DNA from: an uncultured Candidatus Saccharibacteria bacterium
Lineage (GTDB): Bacteria > Patescibacteriota > Minisyncoccia > Phycocordibacterales > JACOZG01
Direction of reading: 5' to 3'
Length of the DNA stretch: 64,000 nt
Assembly (NCBI GenBank): GCA_964648765.1
Contig: CAZYLF010000003.1
Coordinates: 41,676 to 105,675 of the forward strand
A program made the translations under genes and the position numbers. The stretch's first letter is position 1. The number at the start of each line of letters is the position of its first letter. Below, in pieces: positions 5,578 to 64,000 of this stretch. The notes under the pieces are model-generated. The model was not told the origin of the DNA. It worked only from the letters and a program-made list of their open reading frames with translations, and did no database searches.

Positions 5578-5732
5578 TCTTTGCTCCTATGTTAGAGATC
5601 TGATCGTTCCTATTTAGATCCTACCTGATTACCTCACTCTTTACAACTAGGTCCAAAGTCTGTATTTAAATTAAAATCGCCACGCACCGCATGGTGCATG
5701 GCGATTGTGTGACGGTGATTAAGATTTGCGTC

Positions 5733-6254
5733 TCAATCCCCTGTCTTCACTTCTTCCTTTTTCTTCTCACCCTTAAACGCATCCTTGATGATACCTGTTG
5801 CTTTTACTGCGCCGTTGGCCGCACCAGTGAATGCACCTTCAACAATGTTGCCAGTAACCTTACCCGCGTTATCGCGGATCCCTGCGCCAATGCCAGCAAA
5901 ATTGTTGACCTTTCTGTAGGCAATGAGATCATCATTGCTCCCAAATTGACAATCTTTGCCGGCACTCCTGACAGTAAAATTTTCCTTTACAGCGGATACG
6001 GGGTAAAGAACCTTGATCTTTGTGCCCCACGGATCAATGTCAGCAATCGCGTCACCAGCAGCATGGTCGTAACCTGCACCATCTCGCTTGGTCTCCAAGA
6101 TGTCTGCGGTGTGACTTACCAGGGCTCGCGCGGTGGCGTTCTTGGCGCGATCTTCTGCGCCGCTGAACCAGAGAAATAGAGCAACAACACACGCGGCCAT
6201 AAGGGCGACAGCAGTTAAAATAGCACTTGATCCAGAATTACGAGTGTTCGACAT
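5733..6254 (-). CDS. Hypothetical membrane-anchored/exported protein (Gly/Ala-rich ectodomain)
   Basis: Start reassigned to the internal ATG at 6254 (MSNTRNSGSSAILTAVALMAACVVALFLWF). It is preceded by a GGAGG RBS and followed by an N-terminal TM/signal anchor. Confidence 0.4.
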   Translation of the reverse strand: MSNTRNSGSSAILTAVALMAACVVALFLWFSGAEDRAKNATARALVSHTADILETKRDGAGYDHAAGDAIADIDPWGTKIKVLYPVSAVKENFTVRSAGKDCQFGSNDDLIAYRKVNNFAGIGAGIRDNAGKVTGNIVEGAFTGAANGAVKATGIIKDAFKGEKKKEEVKTGD

Positions 6255-6413
6255 TCCAAATCCTCCCAAATTAAGGTCCACACCAGGCCAACATTTGGCC
6301 TTTTTATCAACTTCGACTATAGCATTATTACCTCCAATTGTCAAATACCATATCACCGGCGACCTAGCCACCAGATTAAAAACTGCAATCAACGAGATCG
6401 ATAAGATTTTAGT

Positions 6414-6449
6414 TTAAAAAAACAGCAGGAACGTAGTGGTTCCTGCTGT
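6414..6449 (-). terminator. Rho-independent terminator after Ubl-E1-JAB-E2 operon
   Basis: Hairpin CAGCAGGAAC-gtagtg-GTTCCTGCTG followed by a T-run on the minus strand. Confidence 0.55.
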
Positions 6450-6475
6450 AGTAACATAACAATCAAAACAAAGAG

Positions 6476-6757
6476 CTAATTCCCCCGAATCTTGGCAATA
6501 GCAAGAATTGTGTCACCAGACTCAACAAAGTCATCTAGACTGGCCTCTTGCCCATTACGCTGAAGTTCACATTTGTCGATATTCTTAATTCCGACTTTTG
6601 TGAAAAGTTCACGAATGCTGATCTTTTTTGTTATCGGAACCTCCTTGATCTCTCCAGGAATTTTTCCGATACTAACAATTGCATCTTTCTGAATAATGCG
6701 CACATCAGGCAAACTTTCAACCGGCTCTTCCATAAATTCCTTTATCCTATTGCTCAT
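6476..6757 (-). CDS. ThiS/MoaD-like beta-grasp ubiquitin-like protein, C-terminus ...SGDTILAIAKIRGN (Gly followed by one Asn)
   Basis: 93 aa. The C-terminal region resembles the MoaD/ThiS ending dGDEvaiiPPVsGG. AAGGAG RBS 7 nt upstream of the ATG. It is the last gene of the E2-JAB-E1 operon. Confidence 0.5.
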   Translation of the reverse strand: MSNRIKEFMEEPVESLPDVRIIQKDAIVSIGKIPGEIKEVPITKKISIRELFTKVGIKNIDKCELQRNGQEASLDDFVESGDTILAIAKIRGN

Positions 6758-6783
6758 TTGATTCTCCTTTCAGAATCTGAGGT

Positions 6784-7467
6784 TCAGTAACTTTTACTAA
6801 GAACCATCAAGGGTGACAAAGAAACAATCGCCTCATTTGCAAACTTTTTGTTGTTCACAAAGTTGATCATTGTAAACACTGCCATACCAGCCAAAGTGGC
6901 TACGGTTGGTGCAATTGCCCTTCTCGTACAGGCACTTTCTTCCGCTTCGGCATCAGAATACAGGGTTTTTTCATAAGCTGCAATCTGTTGCGGCATCGCT
7001 GGCTTGATAGCGTAGATTCTCCCCCCTTCAGCTTCCATTCGTGTCTCAATCATCAGGTCAACTTTTAGTTGCAAGCGAATTGAGGATTCCCAAATTGTCT
7101 TCCTACTTTCCATTGTGTCGGTAAGTACGAAAACAATTCCCTTAAGCGATCCCTTGGTAAACTTCTTAGAGACCGTTTTGATCTTGATGCCAGTGCCGGC
7201 TTCAACTGCTTCGGCCAAGGCTTCGACTTTCTTTTTTCCGACATCTCCAAGGCCAAAGACCTGATTTGGCAGATTATGATTCTCTACCTCATCAAAGTCA
7301 TAGACTGTGATGTCTTTACACCCCATCTTGGCCAAGAGCCAAACGATGTAGGAGCCGGTTGCACCGACGCCGATCACCGTGATTGGTTTCTTGAAGTTTG
7401 ACGGAGAAAAGATGTCGAGCTGGCGCCAATAGTCAGGTTCACTTTTTACGGTTTTTCCGCGCGGCAT
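6784..7467 (-). CDS. E1-like ThiF/MoeB-family adenylyltransferase
   Basis: Rossmann motif ITVIGVGATGSYIVWLLAKMG, followed by DFDEVENHNL. A C-terminal ESACTRRAIAPTV segment matches the E1 catalytic-Cys region. Start set at the ATG with an AGGGAGG RBS (7467); the ORF track start at 7548 is further upstream. Confidence 0.7.
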   Translation of the reverse strand: MPRGKTVKSEPDYWRQLDIFSPSNFKKPITVIGVGATGSYIVWLLAKMGCKDITVYDFDEVENHNLPNQVFGLGDVGKKKVEALAEAVEAGTGIKIKTVSKKFTKGSLKGIVFVLTDTMESRKTIWESSIRLQLKVDLMIETRMEAEGGRIYAIKPAMPQQIAAYEKTLYSDAEAEESACTRRAIAPTVATLAGMAVFTMINFVNNKKFANEAIVSLSPLMVLSKSY

Positions 7468-8107
7468 TTTTTCCTCCCTTCTCATAGAATGAGCCAGCTT
7501 TGACCTTGTCCTTAATCTCTTTGGCAATCGCTTTGCGCCGTTTGTCATCTCCGAGATGCATTTGCCAAGGACAATCGGTGATTTTTACATTTTTTGTGTA
7601 ATCAAAAAAATCGAAAACACATTTTCCTTCTCGAGTAAAAATACCACGGATAAAAAATGGATTGTGAGCAAATAGCTCCATCTGGTCATCATCCTGACCT
7701 GAAGGTTCAGTCATGTCCCCAGGATGCAAATGTCCCCAGAAAAGTAGGGAATTAAGAATTTTTTTGTTTGCTGTATCCCTTTGCAACATATCAGTGTAGA
7801 ACTTGCCAATACTTGCTTGATCAAACTCACAATGAGTGCCACTCACTTGCTGATCAAAAAGGAATACCTTTTCGATGAGATAATGGCCGTCATCCAATTT
7901 ATTAACCGTACCGAGCCAACCCACCTCATCGTTACCTGCGGCCTCCATGATGTAGTGCGTATCGGTATACGCCTCAAGTGACAAGAGAATGGTTGGGGTT
8001 ACGACTTCGACCATCGATTGGATTTGCGGTTCTGCCTCGTGAGGGAACAACGGTTTGACTGGTTCCTCCTCAAGTAACATTCCATGGTTTTGACTTGATG
8101 ACCTCAT
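7439..8107 (-). CDS. JAB/MPN (JAMM) metallo-isopeptidase
   Basis: Complete JAMM motif: upstream Glu (HCEFDQ) followed by HLHPGDMTEPSGQD (HxHx7Sx2D). The start ATG overlaps the E2 gene stop (ATGA). Confidence 0.75.
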   Translation of the reverse strand: MRSSSQNHGMLLEEEPVKPLFPHEAEPQIQSMVEVVTPTILLSLEAYTDTHYIMEAAGNDEVGWLGTVNKLDDGHYLIEKVFLFDQQVSGTHCEFDQASIGKFYTDMLQRDTANKKILNSLLFWGHLHPGDMTEPSGQDDDQMELFAHNPFFIRGIFTREGKCVFDFFDYTKNVKITDCPWQMHLGDDKRRKAIAKEIKDKVKAGSFYEKGGKNAARKNRKK

Positions 8108-9804: not shown

Positions 9805-10317
9805 TCATTTAGCGTTTAGTGCTTTTAAACCGGCGATGTCGGGCTGGTCTATGTGTTCTCGCCCCACCAACATCTCTTTATTTTTGATAATAAGTTCTTT
9901 GGAAAGGAGCGGAAGTTTGAATCCTAAAAATTCCACTACCTCAATATCAGGGAAACCATTTTTATAAAAATTCACGTACTTATTTGTTTCTTTGTCGAGG
10001 ATATTCATCTCAGCCATCGGGCAGATGTCTATAACTATTCCCCCGACGGTAATTTCCACATTGTAGTTATCATAATTTTGATCTACAAAATGTTCAAGCG
10101 GACTTGTGATTCTCAACTCAACGAGTTTTAAGAATTCCGCAAAGACAGGATCATCTTTTGAAGTCTCGATATCAATATCGATGTCTGTTAGCTTGCGAGG
10201 TACGCCATACACATAACAAGCAAATCCGCCCGTGATGCACCAACGCAAGTTTAATTTATCCAAGATTGGAATAATAAACGAGAGCGCTTCGTGGACCTTT
10301 TGCTGCTGCGGATTCAT
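9805..10317 (-). CDS. Small nucleotidyltransferase-fold protein (Pol-beta superfamily)
   Basis: hG[GS]-x(9-13)-DhDh signature: ITGGFACYVYGVPRKLTDIDIDIETS. 170 aa, sits 3 nt upstream of the HD gene. Confidence 0.45.
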   Translation of the reverse strand: MNPQQQKVHEALSFIIPILDKLNLRWCITGGFACYVYGVPRKLTDIDIDIETSKDDPVFAEFLKLVELRITSPLEHFVDQNYDNYNVEITVGGIVIDICPMAEMNILDKETNKYVNFYKNGFPDIEVVEFLGFKLPLLSKELIIKNKEMLVGREHIDQPDIAGLKALNAK

Positions 10318-10320
10318 TTA

Positions 10321-10391
10321 CTGCCGGCCAGGGACTCGAACCCCAATACCCGCCTCCAAAGGGCGGTGTCCTACCATTAGACGAGCCGGCA
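10321..10391 (-). tRNA. tRNA-Gln (anticodon UUG)
   Basis: Hand-folded cloverleaf with 7-bp acceptor (U1:A72), D-stem GTCT/GGAC and anticodon stem CCGCC/GGCGG. Loop CTTTGGA gives anticodon TTG. T-loop is TTCGAGT and the discriminator is G73. U1:A72 plus G73 are classical Gln identity elements. CCA is not encoded. Confidence 0.8.
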
Positions 10392-10476
10392 AAGACCCTA
10401 ATAATCTACCAATCTATGAGCCGATTGTACAGAGATTGAAATGGCGAGAGTGAAGATGATAGAGTAGAACGATATA

Positions 10477-10989
10477 ATGCAACTAATTCTTAAACTAAAT
10501 CCAGATAATATTACAGATGAAGTTGCGGCGGGTTTGAAGACTAGATTTGCCGCGAGAGGTGTTGTGTTTGATGAAAATAATAATGTGGCAATTTTGCCTG
10601 TAACGGCTCACGGTTATTACAAACTCCCCGGTGGAGGAATTGAGGAGGGTGAAGATAGTGTGGAAGCTTTTCGCAGAGAATGTTTAGAAGAAATTGGTAC
10701 AGATGTGGAGGTGATGAAAGAGTTGGGCTCAATTGTTGAATATAGGGCACAATTTTCCCTAGTCCAAACATCGTATTGTTATTTAGCAAAAGCGATTGGC
10801 GAAAGAAAGAAGGCAACCTTTACACAACACGAATTGGATAATGGTTTTGAAGAAGCAATTTGGGTGCCAATTGATGAAGCTATTGAATTAATGAATAGCC
10901 AGGCAGACAACTATGGCGGAAAGTTTATTGTAGAACGAGATACTTTTCTTTTAAAAAAAGTCGCGCTGGTGATTACCAACGCGGCTTAA
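10477..10989 (+). CDS. NUDIX hydrolase
   Basis: Nudix box GGIEEGEDSVEAFRRECLEEIG (Gx5Ex7REUxEExGU). Confidence 0.8.
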   Translation: MQLILKLNPDNITDEVAAGLKTRFAARGVVFDENNNVAILPVTAHGYYKLPGGGIEEGEDSVEAFRRECLEEIGTDVEVMKELGSIVEYRAQFSLVQTSYCYLAKAIGERKKATFTQHELDNGFEEAIWVPIDEAIELMNSQADNYGGKFIVERDTFLLKKVALVITNAA

Positions 10990-11008
10990 GGGGAACTTCA
11001 CATGCGTT

Positions 11009-11299
11009 CTAATATGTCCCTAGCACCCACTTTTCGTCAGACTTAAATCGTTGAGCGAGATCGTCTCTGAGCTTATACCTCTCACCCTGGAGTATGTCCT
11101 CCTCCATTTGGCAGTAGAGCACTATGCCTTTGTTGTGCTCAAAGTACTGGAACCCTGTGACACGAATTATCTCAGTTGTCTGACCTACATACAAATTTAG
11201 ATTTGCCCCGATTGGTGGCACAAATTCAAGCTCCAACTCACGATCGTAATAAAGACCCTCATCCCCATCCAAATCCACACTCACAATGAACTTCGGCAT
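11009..11299 (-). CDS. Hypothetical protein
   Basis: 96-aa ORF only. Confidence 0.3.
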   Translation of the reverse strand: MPKFIVSVDLDGDEGLYYDRELELEFVPPIGANLNLYVGQTTEIIRVTGFQYFEHNKGIVLYCQMEEDILQGERYKLRDDLAQRFKSDEKWVLGTY

Positions 11300-11440
11300 C
11301 TCGACCTCCTTTCATTAAATTCTACCTTCTCCTAATCTGTATATTACACACCTTTGCACTTATGGCAAGCATGTCCCCGACTTTTGAATCTATCAAAAGG
11401 TTAAAAAGAGTTGTAGAATGCCGTTATAGCGATCACGCCC

Positions 11441-12667
11441 ATGGATACCAAGAAAAATGTCTTTTTATGGACCCTTTACGATTTTGCAAACTCGCTTGTT
11501 TCAATCGTCTTCTTTTTATATTTTGCTCAATGGATCGTGGTAGATAGAGGGCTAGCAGACATCTACTTTAACCTCACTTTTACCGTGGCGGCATTGTTGC
11601 TACTCCTCACCGTGCCAGTTACGGGCTTTTTGCTCGACAAATACTTCAGGCGAATCACGGGCTTAAGATACACCACCTTTGCCACCTCCTTGCTTTATGG
11701 CGCCTGCGCGCTGTCGGCAATTCTTAATAAAGACATCCCGGCATTAATCTTCTTCACCCTTGGACTCTACTCATACCTTTTAACATTCACTTTTTATACA
11801 CCACTTATTAATGACATCTCAAAGCCAGAAAAAATAGGCAAGATCTCAGGCCTAGGAATTGCAGCAAACTACCTGGGGCAATTTACCGGCTTACTCATCG
11901 TTTTGCCATTTTCAAACGGAACGTTTAGTTGGTTTGGTTCGGCAGCTCGCGCCGAGACTTTGCTACCGGCGGTTATCGCCTTTACCATTCTCGCGCTCCC
12001 AATGCTCATATGGTTTAAAGAACCTAAAAAGGAAAAGGTGACCTTCAAATTTAAATCTGAGCTTAAGGGGATGCTAGCAGAAACAAAAAAGCTCTTTTTA
12101 TTCCCCGGCGTGGCGCTCTTTATGTTGGCGTACTTTTTATTTAATGATGCTGTCCTCACAGCGTCCAACAACTTTCCGCTTTTTCTTGAGCAAGTGTGGG
12201 CTGTTTCAGACACGGTAAAAACTTACATTCTCTTAGGAATTATTTTTACCTCCGCAATTGGTGGATTAATTTCTGGAGTTATTGCCGATCGCTTTGGTCA
12301 CAAAAGGACACTCGTATTTATCACAGCCGGGTGGATTTTTATTCTTCCGTTTATTGGATTTATAAATAACTTTACGCTCTTGATTGTTGCCACAACTATT
12401 ATGGGATTGTGGTTTGGTTCCAACTGGGCCGTGTCTCGATCGGTGATGTCGTATCTCGCGCCGCCGCAAGGGCACAATCTTGCCTTTGCCTATTTTGGAT
12501 TAGTGGAGCGGGCGTCGTCTTTTGTGGGGCCGATTGTGTGGGGTCTCGTGGTCACCAGCTTTGTGTCAATTGGCAGTGATAGATATAGATTTGCCACGCT
12601 GGCCGTGACGTTATTTATTGCGCTTGGATTAATTGTATTATTAAAAGTAAAAAGCGACCGCGCCTAA
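11441..12667 (+). CDS. MFS-type transporter (12 predicted TM helices)
   Basis: 408 aa, alternating hydrophobic helices throughout, and a DRFGHKR-like cytoplasmic loop motif. Confidence 0.55.
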   Translation: MDTKKNVFLWTLYDFANSLVSIVFFLYFAQWIVVDRGLADIYFNLTFTVAALLLLLTVPVTGFLLDKYFRRITGLRYTTFATSLLYGACALSAILNKDIPALIFFTLGLYSYLLTFTFYTPLINDISKPEKIGKISGLGIAANYLGQFTGLLIVLPFSNGTFSWFGSAARAETLLPAVIAFTILALPMLIWFKEPKKEKVTFKFKSELKGMLAETKKLFLFPGVALFMLAYFLFNDAVLTASNNFPLFLEQVWAVSDTVKTYILLGIIFTSAIGGLISGVIADRFGHKRTLVFITAGWIFILPFIGFINNFTLLIVATTIMGLWFGSNWAVSRSVMSYLAPPQGHNLAFAYFGLVERASSFVGPIVWGLVVTSFVSIGSDRYRFATLAVTLFIALGLIVLLKVKSDRA

Positions 12668-55579: not shown

Positions 55580-56125
55580 ATGGCAAACAACATAGATCGT
55601 TTTTGCACGTTACTTGAACAAGGTAAGATAAACAGAAATTTGCTCAACTCATGGGGTAGAAGTGGGTACAGCAATCCGTTACACGTCATTGAGCGTGTCG
55701 CAACAAAACAAAACAATCGTGAGTTTATCATGATCACAGTTTTTATCATGACTGTTGTTTTGTTCATTATTGAATCGTCTTCAGGCGACAAACCAAAATT
55801 AGATTTTTACCTTTTGTCATTTTGCCTCATGCTTTTTTTAGCAATGTTTAATTGGTGTGACCGCTACTATGCCTCGTGGCAAGCAAAAAACTTTCTTCAG
55901 GCTATTGAACGTCTTGAAAAAATTTTGGAGTTGCCCAATGGAGCTTGCACGGGTGATTATGGAATTGCCGAGCTCAAAACACTTGCTGAGAATATATATC
56001 ACCGCAAATGCCAGGAGGTGGATGAAGGTAAATGCGATGAAAGTGAAGCAAAAAATGTGATCAGCTATTTACGTGGATTTAAGCTGATCCAATTGGAAGA
56101 AGAGCAAACACCAGAATTGGCATAG
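55580..56125 (+). CDS. Small 2-TM membrane protein, member 1 of tandem paralogue family
   Basis: Strong RBS AAGAGGAGG. N-terminal ~50-aa conserved module (..GKINRNLLNSW....NP..), then two TM helices, then a divergent Cys-containing C-tail. Confidence 0.4.
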   Translation: MANNIDRFCTLLEQGKINRNLLNSWGRSGYSNPLHVIERVATKQNNREFIMITVFIMTVVLFIIESSSGDKPKLDFYLLSFCLMLFLAMFNWCDRYYASWQAKNFLQAIERLEKILELPNGACTGDYGIAELKTLAENIYHRKCQEVDEGKCDESEAKNVISYLRGFKLIQLEEEQTPELA

Positions 56126-56136
56126 AAAATCTCCCC

Positions 56137-56196
56137 GCGCGGTGGCACACCCATCGCGCTTTTTTTGTTTGACAAAGTAAAATTTAGGTGTAGTTT
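56137..56196 (+). promoter_or_regulatory. Terminator-promoter cassette copy 1: hairpin GCGCGGTGG...CCATCGCGC + T-run, then TTGACA-N16-TAGTTT
   Basis: GC-rich 9-bp stem with one G.U wobble, T7 run, -35 TTGACA at 56169-56174 and -10-like TAGTTT at 56191-56196. Confidence 0.55.
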
Positions 56197-56252
56197 AAAA
56201 ATTAGATTGATTGTTGTTAGTCCAATCCGCTTTGAGCGGGAAAGGAAAGATT

Positions 56253-57020
56253 ATGTCACTTGGTCTTTTAAAGAAAAGTCGAGATGTTTATGGGCTTCCT
56301 TATTGTCTACTTTGGTTTTGGGTTGAACGCAAAAAGATTACACAGGAAAGTGGTGGGAACTTTTTAGCAAAGACAGAAAAGAAGTTGGTGAGGTCGTACC
56401 TGCTGATGGCGGTTGGAGGCGCCGTTTTCGCACTTTCAATTACCACACTCTTTCTCCTGGGTGGACCAAAAGTGGTGGATCAACAGTCCTTACCAGTAGG
56501 ATGGGTAAATTTTTTAGCCATGCTCCTGGGTGGAAGTAGTCTGGTTGTTGGCTTTATCGTGTTTTTCGATGTTTTGTTTAGCGGCGATGAGAGTGGTTTT
56601 CAAACAGACCTAGATAGGTTTATGGAATTTACCAGGACAGGCATCATAATGTTATCCCAAATGGGTAATAACGAGCTACGAGAACTCGTCGAAAAAACCC
56701 TGAACGAATCGGCCTACCAAGTCAAAACTGAGGAAAGGTTGATGGATGCCTATTTGCGAGAGGATCCAGAATACCTGATCCATCGCCTCAAAAAGATCCA
56801 ACTCCAAGACAAATTTGCCAGTGACTTTGTGTTCTTTGAGAGTCGGTTTGGTTTAATCAAGGGTGATCCAATTAAATTCCTAGCCGACAATAATCTCGGT
56901 AAGGGAATTAGCGTGACGGCAAAACCGGTGGACCCGCCACCTAAGACGATGAGTGCAGTCACCGGTGACGAAAAAGACGACCGAAAGATCAGGAGCCTAA
57001 TAGAAAGAGCTGATGAATAA
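56253..57020 (+). CDS. 2-TM membrane protein, paralogue family member 2
   Basis: Start at the ATG with an AAAGGAAAG RBS (56253). Two TM helices, then a ~150-aa soluble C-terminal domain. Confidence 0.4.
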   Translation: MSLGLLKKSRDVYGLPYCLLWFWVERKKITQESGGNFLAKTEKKLVRSYLLMAVGGAVFALSITTLFLLGGPKVVDQQSLPVGWVNFLAMLLGGSSLVVGFIVFFDVLFSGDESGFQTDLDRFMEFTRTGIIMLSQMGNNELRELVEKTLNESAYQVKTEERLMDAYLREDPEYLIHRLKKIQLQDKFASDFVFFESRFGLIKGDPIKFLADNNLGKGISVTAKPVDPPPKTMSAVTGDEKDDRKIRSLIERADE

Positions 57021-57042
57021 AACACAATAATGAGTAGTCCTC

Positions 57043-57103
57043 GCGCGGTGGTTCATACCCACCGCGCTTTTTTGTTTGACAAAAATTAAAAGAGTAGTAG
57101 TTT
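57043..57103 (+). promoter_or_regulatory. Terminator-promoter cassette copy 2
   Basis: GCGCGGTGG-ttcatac-CCACCGCGC + T-run, -35 TTGACA 57076-57081, -10-like TAGTTT 57098-57103 (N16). Confidence 0.55.
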
Positions 57104-57245
57104 AAATAACAGATCATAACTCAACGTAAGCTTGGCGTTGGGAAGAATGAAGTGTTTGGACTCTGGCCTGAAACCAGACCCAAACGGGACCTGAAATCCC
57201 CATTCTTAAAGTACAAGCATCTCCCGCAGGGAGAGAGGAGACGTT

Positions 57246-57968
57246 ATGTCATTAGATCTTTGTAAGATGGAGAAGAAAAGTTGGCAGATGCCACACATCC
57301 TACTTTGGATGTGGCTAGGGTATGGATTTGGAAAAAGAAAAGACCCCCTTAAAAAAATGAGGGAGAATTTCCAAATTGCTATTGCCGCATGTGGGCTGGG
57401 CGCAGGAATCCTTATCACGATGGTAGTGGTCTCAATTTCCGTTAAAACCAGTTCACCCCCAGTGATACCTAATCTGTATAATACGATTATGTTCATCGCC
57501 TTCATTGGATGCGCTCTTATTGCTGGAATATTCATAACTAAAAGCAGTACAGATAGTACGGGATTCTCAGATGCTCTGGAAAGATTCGCAAAAGAGGTTG
57601 CGAAGACTCCCGAATCACTTGCCGAAATGAGTAAGGCTGAGTTGTATAAGTTGGCAGAGTCTGTAATTTTTCTCAAAGCATGGAACATTAAAAGGACCGA
57701 GACTGAAATGGCAAAGTACCAAGAAGGTTCACATCAACGTAATGCGTTGCAGAACGAAAAGGAAGCACTTAAAGTAGAGCTAAGGGGAAAGGAAAGCTTC
57801 TTTGCTTTACAGTTTGGTTTGCACTTTGGATCACACGATCGATTCTTTAATGAGAATCCCCTTGCCTCAAACACGGCTCCCCTAACCCCAGAAGCGGCGG
57901 CGGCGTTTGCTAAAGCAGAAGCCGAATTGCAAACAACGCCAATTACGTCACAAGATAGTCTTGATTAG
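57246..57968 (+). CDS. 2-TM membrane protein with C-terminal coiled-coil/Ala-rich tail, paralogue family member 3
   Basis: GAGAGGAG RBS. HILLWMWLGYGFGKRKDPLKK then two TM helices, and a C-terminal EMAKYQEGSHQRNALQNEKEALKVEL. Confidence 0.4.
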   Translation: MSLDLCKMEKKSWQMPHILLWMWLGYGFGKRKDPLKKMRENFQIAIAACGLGAGILITMVVVSISVKTSSPPVIPNLYNTIMFIAFIGCALIAGIFITKSSTDSTGFSDALERFAKEVAKTPESLAEMSKAELYKLAESVIFLKAWNIKRTETEMAKYQEGSHQRNALQNEKEALKVELRGKESFFALQFGLHFGSHDRFFNENPLASNTAPLTPEAAAAFAKAEAELQTTPITSQDSLD

Positions 57969-57974
57969 TCACAG

Positions 57975-58014
57975 CCCGGCAGATTTCTTACGAAATCTGC
58001 CGGTTTTTTTATTT
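57975..58014 (+). terminator. Rho-independent terminator
   Basis: CCCGGCAGATTTC-ttac-GAAATCTGCCGG then T11. Confidence 0.6.
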
Positions 58015-58125
58015 ATTAAATCATGACTGGACAAAAACTAGTTTATTTGTTATAAACAAAAGCAGAGCTTAGGCACAAGCCGAGGCAAATTGGTCTCCAA
58101 ATCAACATTAAGAAAGGACATAAAC

Positions 58126-58569
58126 TTGAATTACGCTAAAAGAATCGTAAGGGCGTTTGATGACGGCAAAATTGATCAGCGGTTACTTGATTTATGGGCT
58201 AAAAACACAGGTGGAGCAAACCCTGTGGCAAGAGCCAAGCATTATCTTAAGGTCAGACGCATCGCCTGGGTAACCATCTCTTTGAATGCCATTGGCATGT
58301 TCGTAACTTTAGGTTGGCCATTCAGTAATCAAGGTGACTGGATGAAAGCAGTATCGATTACTTCAGTCGTCACCTGTTTGCTAACGCTGATGACCGTTCC
58401 ATTTCTTGGCTACCGGTCACCCAGTGTAAAAACCCTCCACATATTTATTTATGGCGATGATCATCATCCACCAAGTGAATGGTTGAGGGCGCTTGATGAA
58501 CTTCAAGCAGAGCGTGCTCGATTTAATGAATTCCAACGAAACAATTGGAAAGGAGCAAAAAGTGGATAA
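58126..58569 (+). CDS. 2-TM membrane protein, paralogue family member 4
   Basis: Probable TTG start at 58126 with AAGAAAGGA RBS (ORF track starts at TTG 58090). N-terminal NYAKRIVRAFDDGKIDQRLLDLWAKNTGGANP, then two TM helices. Confidence 0.4.
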   Translation: MNYAKRIVRAFDDGKIDQRLLDLWAKNTGGANPVARAKHYLKVRRIAWVTISLNAIGMFVTLGWPFSNQGDWMKAVSITSVVTCLLTLMTVPFLGYRSPSVKTLHIFIYGDDHHPPSEWLRALDELQAERARFNEFQRNNWKGAKSG

Positions 58570-59059
58570 CGCGAAACAGATTGTTAAGGCTTGGGACAAT
58601 GGAGAGATCCATTATTTCATCCCTGAAGCTTGGGCAAAAGCAACAGGAAAAACTGACCCAATCGCCCTAGCAAGATTCATGATCTCAACTCGGTGTTGGA
58701 TGTGGCCAACGGCAATAATCAGCATATTGGCAATTTTTACCTTTGTTGGTTGGCCGTTTGATAGTGATGGGACATTCTTTAAGGCCGGGCCTATTACCCT
58801 ATTTTCGGCCTATCTTATCCTCGGCATGATTGCCTTGCCTATCATGGGCTACACAGCGCTTGATGACTTTATCGATTTACTTGAAAAGTCTAAGCATAGT
58901 GAGGAAATGCAAAGGCTACTGGCAGAAATCACACGCACAAAAGCAGTCTACGAGCGAGAACTGAGCAAATCGCGTCACAAGCGGAGATTGAGTAAGTCTA
59001 GAATTCGCCGACGTCCGCGCCGCAAGCGTCGGGTCCGTTCAAAAATGTCGAGGTCTTAA
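58562..59059 (+). CDS. 2-TM membrane protein with highly basic C-tail, paralogue family member 5
   Basis: Probable GTG start at 58562 with AAAGGAG RBS. N-terminal DNAKQIVKAWDNGEIHYFIPEAWAKATGKTDP is paralogous to member 4. Tail RHKRRLSKSRIRRRPRRKRRVRS. Confidence 0.4.
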   Translation: MDNAKQIVKAWDNGEIHYFIPEAWAKATGKTDPIALARFMISTRCWMWPTAIISILAIFTFVGWPFDSDGTFFKAGPITLFSAYLILGMIALPIMGYTALDDFIDLLEKSKHSEEMQRLLAEITRTKAVYERELSKSRHKRRLSKSRIRRRPRRKRRVRSKMSRS

Positions 59060-59070
59060 TATTTCTCCCC

Positions 59071-59130
59071 GCGCGATGGCTTACCCCATCGCGCTTTTTT
59101 ATTTGACTAAATAATATATGATGGTAGTTT
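59071..59130 (+). promoter_or_regulatory. Terminator-promoter cassette copy 3 (stem variant GCGCGATGG/CCATCGCGC)
   Basis: Compensatory change in both stem arms relative to copies 2 and 5. T-run, -35 TTGACT 59103-59108, -10-like TAGTTT 59125-59130. Confidence 0.55.
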
Positions 59131-59180
59131 GTTTACTGGGGATAATGATCTTCGTAAGTCAAAAACTGAAAGGAACAAAA

Positions 59181-59774
59181 ATGAAAATTGTAGACCAGAT
59201 CCGTGACCTAGCGAACAAAAAGAAAGTTAATCAATCTCTAGTCACGCAGTGGATACAAAACAACAAAGCCCCTAACCCCAACCCATTTTTAGTCCTGGAA
59301 GACTATAGAAACGGGATAAGACTTGCTTGGATATTAATGTGTGCGGCACTTTTGGGACTAGGGATTATGCTGCATAGTATGTACATCTTGAACGCTAAAC
59401 CAGAAATGTGGGTTTTTGTTGTTTTAGCAATAATGACAATACTTCCACTACTAAGTCTGGGACTAACTTACACAGCCTTGAGATTATTTCTTCCTTATCT
59501 TGAAAAATTTGTGAAGGATGTTGAGATTCTTGATACAATTTTGGTTCTACCAAACGGCACAAGTGATTTAACTTTTGAAGAAATTCAGGAAAGAGCTGCA
59601 CCGATTTTGAGAGAACTAAAACTAGGAATCAAAGAAGAGTTCGCCTCCCTGGATAGCTCCTTGATGCACTTTAAAGGATTTGGCACTTTGGATATCCTTC
59701 GCTGTTTTCATGCCTTTGGTTTGTATAAGATTGGAGAAGAACCGGTAATCTTGTACGGGATAAGGGAGAAATAG
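59181..59774 (+). CDS. 2-TM membrane protein, paralogue family member 6
   Basis: Start at the ATG with an AAAGGAAC RBS (59181), downstream of the cassette -10. N-terminal KIVDQIRDLANKKKVNQSLVTQWIQNNKAPNPNP, then two TM helices. Confidence 0.4.
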   Translation: MKIVDQIRDLANKKKVNQSLVTQWIQNNKAPNPNPFLVLEDYRNGIRLAWILMCAALLGLGIMLHSMYILNAKPEMWVFVVLAIMTILPLLSLGLTYTALRLFLPYLEKFVKDVEILDTILVLPNGTSDLTFEEIQERAAPILRELKLGIKEEFASLDSSLMHFKGFGTLDILRCFHAFGLYKIGEEPVILYGIREK

Positions 59775-59787
59775 TGTACTTGCAATC

Positions 59788-59847
59788 GCGCGATGGCTTG
59801 CCCATCGCGCTTTTTTATTTGACTAATTATACTAATAGCAGTAGCTT
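59788..59847 (+). promoter_or_regulatory. Terminator-promoter cassette copy 4
   Basis: GCGCGATGG-cttgc-CCATCGCGC + T-run, -35 TTGACT 59819-59824, -10-like TAGCTT 59842-59847 (N17). Confidence 0.55.
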
Positions 59848-59905
59848 TCATTTAGAAATCGTTCACGTTTATGAAAACAAAGCATGTTCATTGAAAGGAG
59901 CAATC

Positions 59906-60412
59906 ATGCAAATTGAGAATCTGGATGACTTTCACGAATCTACCCTCCAAATAATTGGGCAGCAGATGAATAGTTTCAGCACAGCGCAAATTTTGCGAAC
60001 CATTTGTTTGTTAGTGGGCGATCAGTTACCTCCCCACCTGCAGAAAAGAAAAGACAACTTGGCCAAAATTGTAAGCAAAGTAGTTGGACGAATTGATCTT
60101 TCAACTCACCCATCTGTTGAAATTGCCACCTTCTTAAGAGAACGAGGCGCCAGCGCAAGGTCTCTCAGAATCGCCCTTGAAGAAATCGGAGAAGTTGACC
60201 AACCAGAACCAGCTATTTTGGAAAGGATAGTCTCCTACGCTCGAGAAGAAACTCTGGATGCGAATGATCTCTTGGTGATGCCACATCACCTAGTAATTGG
60301 CATTCTTAGGTGTGAGAATTCACTCGGAGCAAGGTCCTTGACCCATCTTGGTGTTCCACTTGAAGAAACAGCAAAAGAAATCAGACAAGCTTTTGCAAAA
60401 TCTGAAGACTGA
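59906..60412 (+). CDS. Stand-alone Clp N-terminal (Clp_N) double-repeat domain protein
   Basis: Start at the ATG with AAAGGAG RBS (59906). Two Clp_N-like repeats: STAQILRTICLLVGDQLPPHL and HHLVIGILRCENSLGARSLTHLGVPLEETAKEIRQAF. No AAA+ module. Confidence 0.5.
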   Translation: MQIENLDDFHESTLQIIGQQMNSFSTAQILRTICLLVGDQLPPHLQKRKDNLAKIVSKVVGRIDLSTHPSVEIATFLRERGASARSLRIALEEIGEVDQPEPAILERIVSYAREETLDANDLLVMPHHLVIGILRCENSLGARSLTHLGVPLEETAKEIRQAFAKSED

Positions 60413-61792: not shown

Positions 61793-63847
61793 TTAAGCCC
61801 TCGGTTTTAAATGGCTGATATGCCTAGATAAAATCTCTTGAATAGCAGCAGGAAAGTCTTCAACACTTTGCGGGATGATGCTATCTTCGCCAAAATGATA
61901 CTTGACCTTGGCTGGAATATCACCTTCTGAGGTAATAGCCGTACCCTCAAAAGGTGTAACGTTTCTGGCTTCTTCAGCAGCGGCTTTAGTATCAGGGCTC
62001 TCTGTTGTGCTGTCTGAAACAAAAACCATTAATGTCCCTAATCTGTCGCTGACGCCGCGAAATTGCTGAGAGGCTCGGTGTAATCGAGGCACAGCTGCTT
62101 GAATTGCTCGAGCATCTTCATTGCCCTTATTGCCAAAAGGTCCGGCTGGGTCAACCATTGATACCAGTTTGGTTTTAATTTTTACCGAGTAATCGTCTTT
62201 TGCTGACTTAATAAGATACTTTTCTCCCAGGTCTTGATCACCGACATTTCCCTCATCGCTCGCGAGTATCTCAATGTGAATATTAAATCCCAAAGCGGCC
62301 TCACAAACCGCGACACAAGCTTTAACTGCATTTTTTATCCGTTCAGCCTCTTGATACATCGAACCGGAGACATCAACTAAGAGTTGCAGAACCAAAGCAT
62401 TTTTTTCTGGAGTCTGCCTTCGCCCCATTGGATTCTCATACCCAGTTCCAAATCTCCTAACCAGCCGCCGGACGTCAAACCGAATACCCTTTTTGCCCCA
62501 ATCATACTGCGGCTCATCAACTTTTGGCAAAAATCTTTCGAAGACACGCTTCAGTTGATGAATCACCGGCTGAACCTCATCTTTTAATTCACTGTATGCT
62601 TCACGTAATTTAGGATCCTCAAAACCATCCTTAGTTTGCAACAAGTCATTCTTTGCTTGCTCGAGCGACTTCTGATCTTTGTCTTTACTTTCAGAATTCT
62701 GTTTGGCTTTTTCTGATTTCTGTTGGAGTCTTTTCTCGTGTTTATCAACAATATTTTTGAAAATTTTCTGCATCTCTGGCGGCCAAGAAGAAGGATCACT
62801 CGGGTCAAAATTGCCGTCTGACTCTGGTGGCTTTTCACCCTTTGACGATTTACCCTTTTTTAATTTTTTATCAGGCTTCGACTTCCCTTCTTTCCCCTCA
62901 CCATCATCACCATCGCCCTCTCCTTCCTCAGATTCACCCGCCTCTTCCGGAAATTCATCAATGAGCTTTTTAAACGACGGCCAAATAACATCAACGATCT
63001 CCCTCTCAACCTCTGCCCCAACTTTCATACAGGGCCGGACCGCATCACCGGTAATCTTTTTCAAGCTCGCTTCAACCTTCAAAAACTCCTCTTTTACTCG
63101 GGGATCTAAGTCATCCAAACTCCACGGTTTTTGCTCTCCCGCTAAATCTTTTTCATGTAAACGCCACAGCGATTCGAGTTTTAAAATAAATTTAAACTGC
63201 TCGGGTGGCGTCATTTTTGGTTTACCCTCCGACCCCTTTATACCCTCCGCGATATTAGGGATTATCAATAACCGATTTTTTTCAAAGAGCTGCTGGCGAG
63301 CATTTTCATGCATTGGCCCACCCACCAGTCTCTCCATTCTTGGATCCTCGATGCAATTGTCTAAACTAGTAAGTTCAGACGGGTCATAGCCTTCTTGGCG
63401 AGCCAAAATTCGGAATCTTTCAATCCGGCCAAAATCTGTCCATTTGGCGTGGCCTTGCTCATGGGCGATCTCTCCGCGCAAAAACTGTTGTGGTGCCTTA
63501 CCAGCCACATAAACATAGGGCAGGCCTATAAGATAGGTTTTCTTTTGCGGGTCATCAACAATTTCTCCCGTTTCAGTTACTGTTTTGGCCGGTACTTGTC
63601 CGCAACAAAACGTGTCGAGAGTTGGGTCGGTATACACCTCGATTACCCTGTCTGGCGTTTGAGAAAACTTTTCCAGATCGCTCAAAATCTGATCAACTTC
63701 TTCCGGCGATGCCGTCTTCATCCGTTCTTGACACCCCGCAATAAAAGCATTGGGATCACCAAGCAAAGTCTCTTCTTTGAGAACTTCTTGGATTTCTCCT
63801 GTTTGCATATTTTCAGGTGTTTTCATCATAATCTCTAGATAATACAA
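61793..63847 (-). CDS. VWA-domain protein with N-terminal HExxH putative metallopeptidase domain (DUF2201-like architecture)
   Basis: HEQGHAKWTDFG (HExxH) at aa ~125. Central Glu/Lys/Asp-rich linker. C-terminal VWA with MIDAS motif LLVDVSGSM and downstream VFVSDSTTES. Confidence 0.6.
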   Translation of the reverse strand: MYYLEIMMKTPENMQTGEIQEVLKEETLLGDPNAFIAGCQERMKTASPEEVDQILSDLEKFSQTPDRVIEVYTDPTLDTFCCGQVPAKTVTETGEIVDDPQKKTYLIGLPYVYVAGKAPQQFLRGEIAHEQGHAKWTDFGRIERFRILARQEGYDPSELTSLDNCIEDPRMERLVGGPMHENARQQLFEKNRLLIIPNIAEGIKGSEGKPKMTPPEQFKFILKLESLWRLHEKDLAGEQKPWSLDDLDPRVKEEFLKVEASLKKITGDAVRPCMKVGAEVEREIVDVIWPSFKKLIDEFPEEAGESEEGEGDGDDGEGKEGKSKPDKKLKKGKSSKGEKPPESDGNFDPSDPSSWPPEMQKIFKNIVDKHEKRLQQKSEKAKQNSESKDKDQKSLEQAKNDLLQTKDGFEDPKLREAYSELKDEVQPVIHQLKRVFERFLPKVDEPQYDWGKKGIRFDVRRLVRRFGTGYENPMGRRQTPEKNALVLQLLVDVSGSMYQEAERIKNAVKACVAVCEAALGFNIHIEILASDEGNVGDQDLGEKYLIKSAKDDYSVKIKTKLVSMVDPAGPFGNKGNEDARAIQAAVPRLHRASQQFRGVSDRLGTLMVFVSDSTTESPDTKAAAEEARNVTPFEGTAITSEGDIPAKVKYHFGEDSIIPQSVEDFPAAIQEILSRHISHLKPRA

Positions 63848-64000
63848 TTATTTTTCAAACTTTGCTCATGATTTTGGTTTTTTGAATGAATCAACTTTTT
63901 GGCGAACGGCACTGAAAAGAGAGAGGGTACCTTGATGACGAGACAAGTGTTCAGCGGCGATGTCGGAGATGGTGGCGAGGCCGTAAAGATAGAGCGAACC

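What the first reader, a model, noticed from the sequence alone, without database searches (positions are those of the whole stretch)
61793..64000. VWA protein with N-terminal HExxH metallopeptidase-like domain; partner gene cut by window edge
This is the DUF2201-like architecture: a putative zinc peptidase followed by an acidic linker and a VWA/MIDAS domain. It is typically partnered with a MoxR-type AAA+ ATPase in poorly characterised two-component systems that have been proposed to act in conflict or signalling. The region beyond 63848 is open on both strands. One candidate is a GC-rich plus-strand start (ATG at 63936, MTRQVFSGDVGDGGEAVKIE...) with RNY-like codon structure. The other is a minus-strand C-terminal fragment ending near 63866. 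The partner cannot be assigned from this window.
Basis: partly seen in the sequence, partly recalled or inferred. Interest (0 to 1): 0.5.

Follow-up and report, generated by a model that had tools for sequence, protein, structure and literature searches.

The report
CobT-like zincin–VWA adaptor, Patescibacteria locus
The gene is real and encodes a zinc-peptidase-like domain joined by an acidic linker to a metal-binding VWA domain, and in related uncultured Patescibacteria this protein always sits with a dynein-type AAA+ ATPase and a tandem array of repeat proteins, a three-part system nobody has described.

Summary
Window 61793-63847 (-) encodes a 677-684 aa protein. It has an N-terminal zincin-fold domain with an invariant HExxH and NxxEDxRxE, a disordered acidic/basic linker, two long helices, a shaft-like segment and a VWA domain with a DxSGS MIDAS.

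The window protein has no Pfam hit, and neither it nor 27 relatives match DUF2201. The nearest known architecture is CobT, the adaptor of the CobS AAA+ motor. True CobT lacks the HExxH; this family keeps it.

The gene cut by the window edge is the minus-strand candidate. It is the C-terminus of an LRR-like repeat protein, not the ATPase.

In relatives the locus has three parts:
- a 630-aa AAA_5 ATPase with Walker A GKN;
- 1 to at least 10 tandem paralogues that share a ~110-aa N-terminal module, mostly followed by 23-aa repeats;
- this VWA protein.

13 of 17 loci of at least 9 kb hold the ATPase. None lies in the 64-kb window, and the contig could not be extended.

My reading: this protein is the adaptor of a CobS/CobT-like motor acting on the co-encoded module proteins, possibly cleaving them. 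The last step is inference. It is a new variant of a known kind.

The parts
61793..63829 (-). Coding sequence of the zincin-VWA (CobT-like) protein. The stop is at 61793-61795. The likely start is ATG 63829 or 63826. The TTG at 63847 is only the mechanical ORF start.
   Evidence: ORF list. Public gene call of 677 aa, 100% identical. The 37-sequence alignment starts at M8.
62948..63775 (-). N-terminal zincin-fold domain, residues 25-300: two helices, a three-stranded sheet, then about eight helices.
63449..63463 (-). HEQGH (H129-H133), the HExxH zinc-binding and catalytic motif.
   Evidence: Read. Invariant in 37 core sequences and in 28 core plus distant sequences.
63329..63358 (-). NCIEDPRMER (N164-R173). 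This is the candidate 'glutamate helix' that would supply the third zinc ligand (E167 or D168).
   Evidence: N164, E167 and D168 are invariant across the extended family. The same NxxEDxRxE motif occurs in the IncC plasmid CobT-like protein. The ligand role is inferred.
62792..62956 (-). Disordered acidic-then-basic, glycine-rich linker, residues 298-352. Its length varies among homologues.
   Evidence: pLDDT below 50 at 305-326. Composition. Length variation in the alignment; P0042 and P0051 carry much longer linkers.
62402..62779 (-). Two long helices (residues 357-439) and a shaft-like segment (440-482) before the VWA core. They correspond to the alpha0'-alpha0-shaft of CobT_C.
   Evidence: Model. 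hhalign against a true CobT: 97.6%, E 3e-12, starting at residue 423. CobT description in bioRxiv 10.64898/2026.07.21.739949.
61820..62401 (-). VWA domain, residues 483-676. The MIDAS motif DVSGS (D492-S496) is at 62360-62374. N576/D578 and D612 complete the site.
   Evidence: Foldseek PDB: Rea1-MIDAS 6qtb E 9e-8, NorD 9qhd E 1e-7, MDN1-MIDAS 8ql1. Invariant residues. VWA_2 in 20 of 28 relatives.
63866..64000 (-). The last 44 codons plus the stop of the upstream gene, cut by the window edge. It holds one 23-aa LRR-like repeat (LYLYGLATISDIAAEHLSRHQGT) and the family's basic tail (VRQKVDSFKKPKS). This is the last gene of the paralogue array.
   Evidence: Translation. tblastn to the C-termini of paralogues, E 3e-5. 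HMM of paralogue tails, E 7.3e-12, the only hit among all window ORFs.

Best explanation
The gene encodes the adaptor subunit of a three-component AAA+ machine that, in the data searched, occurs almost only in Patescibacteria-type metagenome genomes.

Its build matches CobT, the adaptor of the CobS motor in cobaltochelatase. It has an M48-like zincin domain, a disordered charged linker, two long helices, a shaft segment and a VWA/MIDAS domain. Unlike cobaltochelatase CobT, it keeps an intact HExxH...NxxED metal site.

By analogy with CobS-CobT and NorQ-NorD, I infer the following steps:
- The shaft enters the pore of a hexamer of the co-encoded 630-aa AAA_5 ATPase.
- The zincin domain docks on the ATPase.
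- The MIDAS face, and the cleft between the two domains, holds a client.

The clients are most likely the co-encoded tandem paralogues. They all share a ~110-aa N-terminal module, followed by 23-aa LRR-like repeats or by a small globular domain. The module would be the common handle. ATP-driven movement would remodel or assemble these proteins, and the retained zincin site may cut the module off.

Shown here: the domain architecture, the conserved motifs, and the gene linkage in relatives. Inferred: the physical complex, the client identity and the proteolysis.

In this window only the adaptor gene and the last 44 codons of the last paralogue are present.
For: Architecture:
- Full model pLDDT 84, N-domain model pLDDT 93.
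- The best VWA matches are the MIDAS domains that work with AAA_5 motors: Rea1, MDN1 and NorD.
- The best N-domain matches are M48 peptidases and viral CobT-like proteins.
- CobT_N is reported to resemble the M48C domain, followed by a ~90-aa disordered linker and alpha0'-alpha0-shaft-VWA.

Homology:
- hhalign to a true CobT, 97.6%.
- hhalign to an IncC plasmid protein: 95% for shaft plus VWA and 85% for the HExxH region. That protein passes the Pfam CobT cut-off and has HEAAH plus NVLEDCRIER.

Motif conservation:
- H129, E130, H133, N164, E167, D168 and the MIDAS residues are invariant down to 17% identity.
- True CobT has RGLGDSMALRLACHD in place of the HExxH.

Linkage:
- The AAA_5 gene is in the held sequence of 17 of 29 non-redundant loci, and of 13 of 17 loci of at least 9 kb.
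- Eleven VWA/AAA pairs share a contig length.
- N-module genes occur in 23 of 29 loci, 1-10 copies, nearly all on the same strand.
- A distant branch keeps the same logic with a different paralogue family.

Other:
- The window edge fragment belongs to the paralogue family.
- The same sequencing run that holds this gene also holds an AAA_5 gene followed by the start of an N-module gene.
Against: - No AAA_5 or N-module gene lies in the 64-kb window, and I could not extend the contig. The system's presence in this genome is therefore extrapolated.
- Tests that L010 belongs to the same genome were inconclusive.
- The N domain shows no direct profile similarity to true CobT_N. The ATPase matches CobS only around the P-loop. 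The CobT link therefore rests on the C-terminal half, on one intermediate and on fold.
- Nothing tests binding of the N-module, or proteolysis.
- The metal site could be structural rather than catalytic.
- Walker A is GKN rather than GKS/T, so normal ATPase activity is not certain.
Confidence: 0.6

Rival explanations
1. It is a DUF2201-type protein (metallopeptidase-like domain plus VWA-like domain) that forms a two-component MoxR-VWA conflict or signalling system.
For: The general layout is the same: an HExxH domain, then a VWA domain, with a MoxR-class AAA_5 partner in relatives.
Against: No member of the family matches PF13203 or PF09967 at E<=1. The locus has a third, multi-copy component. 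No PADLOC defence model matches any component. Flanking genes are housekeeping genes: YchF and LeuRS here, and PGM, RRF, DNA polymerase III and ThrRS elsewhere.
Confidence: 0.12
2. It is a genuine cobaltochelatase CobT that serves cobalamin synthesis together with CobS and CobN.
For: The shaft plus VWA half is homologous to CobT. CobT_C hits occur in 11 of 28 relatives.
Against: No CobN-like gene is called in any fetched neighbourhood. The ATPase is twice the size of CobS and barely alignable to it. The HExxH is retained here but absent from true CobT. The N domain is not alignable to CobT_N. From general knowledge, Patescibacteria lack cobalamin synthesis.
Confidence: 0.03
3. It is a mobile-element module, like the cobST-like pairs of phages, archaeal viruses and IncC/SXT elements, acquired by these genomes. 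It would serve the element, for example in takeover or anti-defence, rather than the cell.
For: The nearest sequence bridge is a protein carried by more than 3,000 plasmids, encoded near ssb-bet-exo and DUF3150. The best viral structure matches are phage and haloarchaeal virus CobT-like proteins. cobST pairs are widespread in tailed viruses (PMC8651126).
Against: No match in 50,697 phage records. The loci are flanked by different housekeeping genes in different lineages, and no integrase or phage genes are called. Identity of 36-60% across Peribacteria, Paceibacterota and other Patescibacteria fits long residence.
Confidence: 0.1
4. The zincin domain is a non-catalytic docking domain, as in CobT. 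The protein would be only a MIDAS adaptor that helps fold or assemble the repeat proteins or some other client, with no proteolysis.
For: In CobT the equivalent domain binds the small subdomain of CobS, and CobN. MoxR-VWA pairs characterised so far act as chaperones or metal insertases (abstracts listed).
Against: The catalytic E130, both His and the downstream E/D are invariant across relatives at 17-60% identity, whereas true CobT has lost them. That pattern is what selection on a working metal site predicts.
Confidence: 0.25

Closest known systems
CobT, adaptor subunit of the aerobic cobaltochelatase CobS-CobT-CobN (Pfam PF06213 + PF11775)
   Same: - Same order of parts: M48-like N domain, about 50-90 residues of disordered acidic linker, two long helices, a shaft and a VWA domain with a DxSxS...N...D MIDAS.
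- The shaft plus VWA half is homologous, hhalign 97.6%.
- The partner is an AAA_5 ATPase.
   Different: - HExxH and the catalytic Glu are kept here and lost in true CobT.
- The N domain is not alignable by sequence.
- The window protein is below the Pfam cut-offs.
- The partner ATPase is about 630 aa, with a 300-aa N-terminal extension and a GKN Walker A.
- There is no CobN. Arrays of N-module/LRR-like proteins take that place.
CobT-like VWA proteins of mobile elements (IncC/SXT plasmids, tailed phages, haloarchaeal viruses)
   Same: - Intact HExxH plus NxxEDxRxE, a charged linker and a VWA domain.
- An AAA ATPase is encoded nearby.
- These are the structural neighbours of the N domain.
- Function is unknown. 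PMC8651126 says they are often annotated as peptidases.
   Different: - Identity is only about 20-25%, and the link runs through an intermediate.
- The context there is ssb-bet-exo and DUF3150, or phage genes, not arrays of repeat proteins.
- The ATPase there is CobS-sized (322 aa).
NorQ-NorD and CbbQ-CbbO (MoxR-class AAA+ with a VWA adaptor)
   Same: NorD VWA is among the best structural matches. A VWA protein couples an AAA_5 ring to a client.
   Different: NorD and CbbO have no HExxH zincin domain. Their clients are single enzymes (cNOR, Rubisco), not a multi-copy family with a shared N-terminal module.
Rea1/Midasin MIDAS domain with the UBL domains of Ytm1 and Rsa4
   Same: It is the best structural match of the VWA half (6qtb, 8ql1). 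It offers a model in which several clients share one small N-terminal domain that docks on the MIDAS.
   Different: In Rea1 the MIDAS is fused to the AAA+ ring protein. It is eukaryotic and has no peptidase domain. Whether the N-module here resembles a UBL was not tested.
DUF2201 / DUF2201_N proteins (PF09967, PF13203)
   Same: HExxH domain followed by a VWA-like domain, usually next to a MoxR-class ATPase (from general knowledge).
   Different: No Pfam match for any of 28 family members. The protein here is larger, with a long linker, helices and a shaft.

Membership tests
VWA / MIDAS domain superfamily | Rossmann-like VWA fold | tested here: met
   Foldseek against PDB gives 63 matches at E<=1e-3. 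Those listed are all VWA or MIDAS domains; the best is 6qtb at E 9e-8.
VWA / MIDAS domain superfamily | MIDAS motif DxSxS plus downstream T/N and D | tested here: met
   D492-V-S-G-S496, N576/D578 and D612. D492, S494, S496 and D612 are invariant in 28 diverse sequences.
VWA / MIDAS domain superfamily | Pfam VWA models above cut-off for this protein | tested here: not met
   The window protein has 0 Pfam hits at E<=1. 20 of 28 relatives match VWA_2 and 15 of 28 match VWA.
CobT (PF06213 CobT + PF11775 CobT_C) | C-terminal alpha0'-alpha0-shaft-VWA unit homologous to CobT_C | tested here: met
   hhalign of A4 against Rhizobium CobT: 97.6%, E 3e-12, over query 408-646. CobT_C hits in 11 of 28 relatives.
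CobT (PF06213 CobT + PF11775 CobT_C) | N-terminal CobT domain (M48C-like fold) | tested here: inconclusive
   The fold is M48-like, as reported for CobT_N, and viral CobT-like proteins match. Direct hhalign to true CobT_N shows nothing. The only link is through the IncC protein that passes PF06213.
CobT (PF06213 CobT + PF11775 CobT_C) | Pfam gathering score reached by this protein | tested here: not met
CobT (PF06213 CobT + PF11775 CobT_C) | Works with CobS and CobN in a cobalamin context | tested here: not met
   No CobN-like gene is called in the neighbourhoods. The ATPase is only marginally alignable to CobS.
DUF2201 (PF09967) with DUF2201_N (PF13203) | Match to either Pfam model | tested here: not met
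   0 of 28 family members at E<=1.
Zincin metallopeptidases (gluzincin type; M48-like) | HExxH on a helix after a small sheet | tested here: met
   HEQGH at 129-133 lies in helix 120-136, after strands 67-110. It is invariant.
Zincin metallopeptidases (gluzincin type; M48-like) | Third zinc ligand (Glu) on a downstream helix | tested here: inconclusive
   E167 and D168 are invariant in NxxED on helix 156-175.
Zincin metallopeptidases (gluzincin type; M48-like) | Overall fold similarity | tested here: met
Zincin metallopeptidases (gluzincin type; M48-like) | Peptidase activity | not testable with these tools
   This needs biochemistry.
MoxR-class AAA+ / VWA partner systems | AAA+ ATPase of the MoxR/dynein class encoded in the same locus | tested here: inconclusive
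   Met in relatives: 17 of 29 loci, 13 of 17 loci of at least 9 kb, and 11 contig-length pairs. Not found in this 64-kb window. The contig could not be extended.
vWA-MoxR-VMAP ternary conflict systems (Kaur et al. 2020, PMC7159879) | VMAP component and effector domains | not tested
   No VMAP model was available. The paper does not mention CobT, M48 or leucine-rich repeats. PADLOC gives no hit.

The most novel reading that the evidence does not exclude
Patescibacteria carry a previously undescribed protein-maturation machine. A CobS/CobT-type AAA+ motor, whose adaptor has kept a working zincin site, would recognise a shared ~110-aa N-terminal handle on a diversified, tandemly amplified family of LRR-like proteins. 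It would unfold or position them and cleave the handle off, releasing binding proteins used in the episymbiotic lifestyle. If so, CobT of cobaltochelatase would be a degenerate descendant, or sister, of an ATP-driven protease adaptor.
Probability: 0.25. Interest if true: 0.75.

Novelty: new variant of a known kind. Interest (0 to 1): 0.5.

Why it matters
MoxR-class AAA+/VWA pairs are widespread, but a client and a mechanism are known for only a few of them (NorQD, CbbQO, CobST).

This family offers three things:
- An adaptor with an apparently live peptidase site.
- Obvious candidate clients, encoded next to it in up to ten or more copies, all carrying one common module.
- A sequence bridge to the unexplained CobT-like proteins of phages and of more than 3,000 conjugative plasmids, which keep the same HExxH.

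It could therefore show what the 'peptidase' half of CobT-like proteins does. It also points to an amplified repeat-protein family in Patescibacteria, whose cell biology is largely unknown.

The N domain is rare. Only 31 cluster representatives among 1.84 billion match it.

Tried and rejected
- Pfam, NCBIfam and PDB sequence searches with the single protein gave nothing. A PDB search with the N-domain profile also gave nothing.
- The AlphaFold-database library was not available.
- Extending the window failed. Look-ups of the VWA protein and of YchF returned only a 3.5-kb Logan contig that starts 69 nt upstream of the gene. An exact 30-mer from the window end has no match in JGI metagenomes. 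The cluster look-up gave no accession.
- No AAA protein has the window's contig length, 107,285.
- I tried to tie the AAA_5 contig L010 (same sequencing run) to this genome. Tetranucleotide correlation was 0.71. That is within the window's own range of 0.70-0.87, but an unrelated locus scores 0.74. A mirror-tree correlation ranked it only 15th. Both are inconclusive.
- A search of the big protein collection with the N-module profile returned one hit only; the profile is too short for that tool.
- The plus-strand ATG-63936 ORF is rejected: it is antisense to a fragment with a specific family match.
- A secreted or membrane protein is rejected: there is no signal peptide or transmembrane segment by hydropathy in the adaptor or in 29 paralogues.
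- A phage origin is not supported: no match in the phage collection.
Full report
**The gene**

The window carries one long minus-strand ORF, 63847 to 61793, of 684 aa from a TTG. Public gene calls for the identical protein (P0001, 677 aa) and all homologues begin at the ATG pair at 63829/63826. HEQGH is encoded at 63449-63463, NCIEDPRMER at 63329-63358 and DVSGS at 62360-62374. The protein has no signal peptide or membrane segment.

**Database status**

Pfam gives no hit at E<=1. NCBIfam and PDB sequence searches give nothing meaningful.

The large protein collection holds 41 relatives at 36-100% identity. None has a precomputed Pfam domain. Where they are named, they come from Paceibacterota, Peribacteria or the 'Patescibacteria group', and one is called a VWA domain-containing protein.

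In the 37-sequence alignment H129, E130, G132, H133, N164, E167, D168, R170-R173, D492, S494-M497, N576, D578, D612 and S613 are invariant.

**Structure**

With that alignment AlphaFold2 gives pLDDT 84. The model shows:
- a compact N domain, residues 30-300;
- a disordered stretch, 305-345;
- two long helices, 357-407 and 412-439;
- a poorly defined segment with a short helix, 447-465;
- a VWA domain, 483-676.

Foldseek against PDB puts the MIDAS domains of Rea1 (6qtb, E 9e-8) and MDN1, and the VWA of NorD (9qhd and 9qh8, E 1e-7 to 4e-7), ahead of ordinary VWA domains. These are the VWA domains that work with AAA_5-type rings.

Among viral models the N domain matches proteins of 650-780 aa named VWFA or cobalamin biosynthesis protein, from haloarchaeal viruses and phages (E 2e-5 to 3e-3, TM about 0.5).

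**Relation to CobT**

A 2026 preprint on CobS-CobT-CobN describes CobT as follows (bioRxiv 10.64898/2026.07.21.739949):
- an N domain resembling the M48C peptidase domain (one helix, a three-stranded sheet, eight helices);
- a ~90-residue disordered linker;
- a C domain made of beta0-alpha0'-alpha0, a shaft that enters the CobS ring, and a VWA domain with MIDAS D, S, S, N, D.

The window protein has the same order of parts.

The tests gave these results:
- A profile of core plus distant relatives aligns to a bona fide CobT at 97.6%, E 3e-12, over shaft plus VWA. That CobT is from Rhizobium plasmid p3 and is encoded next to cobS.
- The N domain does not align directly to CobT_N.
- It does reach a distant relative, P0060. 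P0060 matches a VWA protein on more than 3,000 plasmids.
- That plasmid protein passes the Pfam CobT cut-off (26.6 against 26.1 bits). It carries HEAAH and NVLEDCRIER, the same two motifs.
- hhalign to it gives 85% over the motif region and 95% over shaft plus VWA.
- True CobT reads RGLGDSMALRLACHD where this family reads RGEIAHEQGHAKWTD, so it has lost both His and the Glu.

Neither the window protein nor 27 relatives match DUF2201 or DUF2201_N. 20 match VWA_2, 15 match VWA and 11 match CobT_C.

**How rare it is**

A profile of the N domain, searched against 1.84 billion cluster representatives, finds 31 proteins at E<=1e-3. 18 are at E<=1e-30. Twelve are distant; the ten of them scanned all carry a C-terminal VWA. 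Across core and distant members the HExxH, N164, E167, D168 and the MIDAS residues stay invariant.

**The gene at the window edge**

The minus-strand frame 64000-63866 translates to GSLYLYGLATISDIAAEHLSRHQGTLSLFSAVRQKVDSFKKPKS*. It matches the C-termini of genes found upstream of the homologues (tblastn E 3e-5). It is the only window ORF to match an HMM built from nine such tails (E 7.3e-12). The plus-strand ATG-63936 ORF is antisense to it and is rejected.

**The locus in relatives**

I fetched 29 non-redundant loci and scanned them with HMMs for the three components. Three components recur, almost always on one strand.

1. An AAA_5 ATPase of 626-665 aa (Pfam E 1e-14 to 8e-21).
   - It is in the held sequence of 17 of 29 loci and of 13 of 17 loci of at least 9 kb.
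   - In the other two the VWA gene lies at the contig end.
   - Eleven VWA/ATPase pairs share a contig length.
2. One to ten or more tandem paralogues, present in 23 of 29 loci.
   - They share a ~110-aa N-terminal module: M..P.ENLI.E, G.E, AI.HD.PIT, a GG hairpin, N..IW.EI..GN, LT.
   - The module is mostly followed by 23-aa repeats, L.L.GLTSLSD.AAE.LSKHKG. In fewer paralogues a ~150-aa globular domain follows it instead.
   - They have no Pfam hit and no signal peptide.
3. The VWA protein, usually last in the locus.

Gene order varies. In L003 the ATPase directly precedes the VWA gene. In L027 and L030 the paralogues follow it.

A distant branch (L011) has the order VWA, a 360-aa protein, AAA_5, a 344-aa protein. 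Its two extra proteins share an N-terminal module of their own.

The ATPases carry Walker A G-E-x-G-x-G-K-N in 55 of 56 cases, and in L011 too.

**This genome**

No AAA_5 or N-module gene lies anywhere in the 64 kb. The contig could not be extended.

There is suggestive evidence. The run that yields a contig identical to the window's end (SRR14271335) also yields a 4.5-kb contig with an AAA_5 gene (P0084) followed by the first 34 codons of an N-module gene. Both short contigs break at the array. Composition and mirror-tree tests cannot confirm that they belong together.

**Interpretation**

The protein is best read as the adaptor of a CobS/CobT-like motor. By analogy, the shaft would enter the ATPase ring, the zincin domain would dock on the ATPase, and the client would be held at the MIDAS. 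The co-encoded module proteins are the obvious clients.

The strict conservation of the catalytic Glu and the metal ligands, set against their loss in cobaltochelatase CobT, argues that the zincin site works. Cleavage of the shared module is a reasonable guess, but an untested one.

The context is housekeeping: YchF directly downstream here, and PGM, RRF or DNA polymerase III elsewhere. No PADLOC model matches and there is no phage match. A defence or mobile-element role is therefore not favoured.

Literature searches found no description of this system. One paper notes that viral cobT is often annotated as a peptidase (PMC8651126).

**Verdict**

This is a new variant of a known kind. Interest is moderate, because most of the interesting locus lies outside the window.

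Noticed in passing
L003:6019-7908, L005:2021-4018, L006:5343-7256, L007:5820-7718, P0068-P0123, L011:11195-13084: The partner AAA_5 ATPases have Walker A GExGxGKN, with Asn where Ser/Thr is expected, in 55 of 56 family members and in the distant branch. They also carry a conserved ~300-aa N-terminal extension with no Pfam match (motifs YEPP, IPEWL.GHE.L.W.G..NP.W).
   Followed up: partly
L014 (IncC plasmid IP40a, NZ_KX156772.1 105177-106973) and about 3,100 other plasmid records: A CobT-like VWA protein with intact HEAAH and NVLEDCRIER motifs is carried by more than 3,000 plasmids (755 Escherichia, 701 Klebsiella, 477 Salmonella). In IP40a it is encoded after an AAA ATPase, ssb, bet, exo and a DUF3150 gene. 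It passes the Pfam CobT cut-off, yet true CobT lacks the HExxH.
   Followed up: partly
L002:2898-3689, 5600-6385, 6387-7184, 7193-7987; L008:6183-6980: A second class of N-module paralogue carries a ~150-aa globular C-terminal domain instead of repeats (FGQYT.NPE..., YYIPGIEYWKW..ENPDK, ending RVILLEK). Neither of the two tested has a Pfam or PADLOC hit.
   Followed up: no
L011:10113-11195 and L011:13362-14396: In a distant branch of the family, the genes flanking the AAA_5 gene are two paralogues with their own shared N-terminal module (..Y.(V/I)K(V/I)..D(S/T)NP....G....E(I/T)..D...LL(K/Q)(Q/E)AD..LKL). The pattern 'motor + adaptor + clients with a common handle' therefore recurs with a different client family.
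   Followed up: no
window 55580-59774 (+): There is a tandem set of six small predicted membrane proteins between LeuRS and YchF. Several share an N-terminal motif (..LL..W......NP......) followed by hydrophobic helices. One has a weak hit to the 8xMP octameric membrane protein family (E 0.0018, below cut-off). ORFs 58090-58569 and 58493-59059 overlap by 77 nt.
   Followed up: partly
window 59774-60412 (+): A 212-aa protein has a weak Clp_N repeat match at its C-terminus (E 0.0017, 18.9 bits against a cut-off of 20.7) and no attached ATPase domain.
   Followed up: no
L001 (Logan SRR14271335_29497) and L010 (SRR14271335_29712): Both short-read contigs from the same run end inside or next to the paralogue array: 69 nt upstream of the VWA gene, and 122 nt downstream of the AAA gene. 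This suggests that the repeat array routinely breaks assemblies, so these loci are probably under-counted in MAGs.
   Followed up: partly
L009 (CAVXGT010000017.1, labelled uncultured Alphaproteobacteria), 9932-11735: A relative at 32% identity lies at the very end of a 268-kb contig labelled as alphaproteobacterial (59% GC). No AAA_5 or N-module gene lies in the 10 kb upstream. This is the only hit outside Patescibacteria-type genomes.
   Followed up: no
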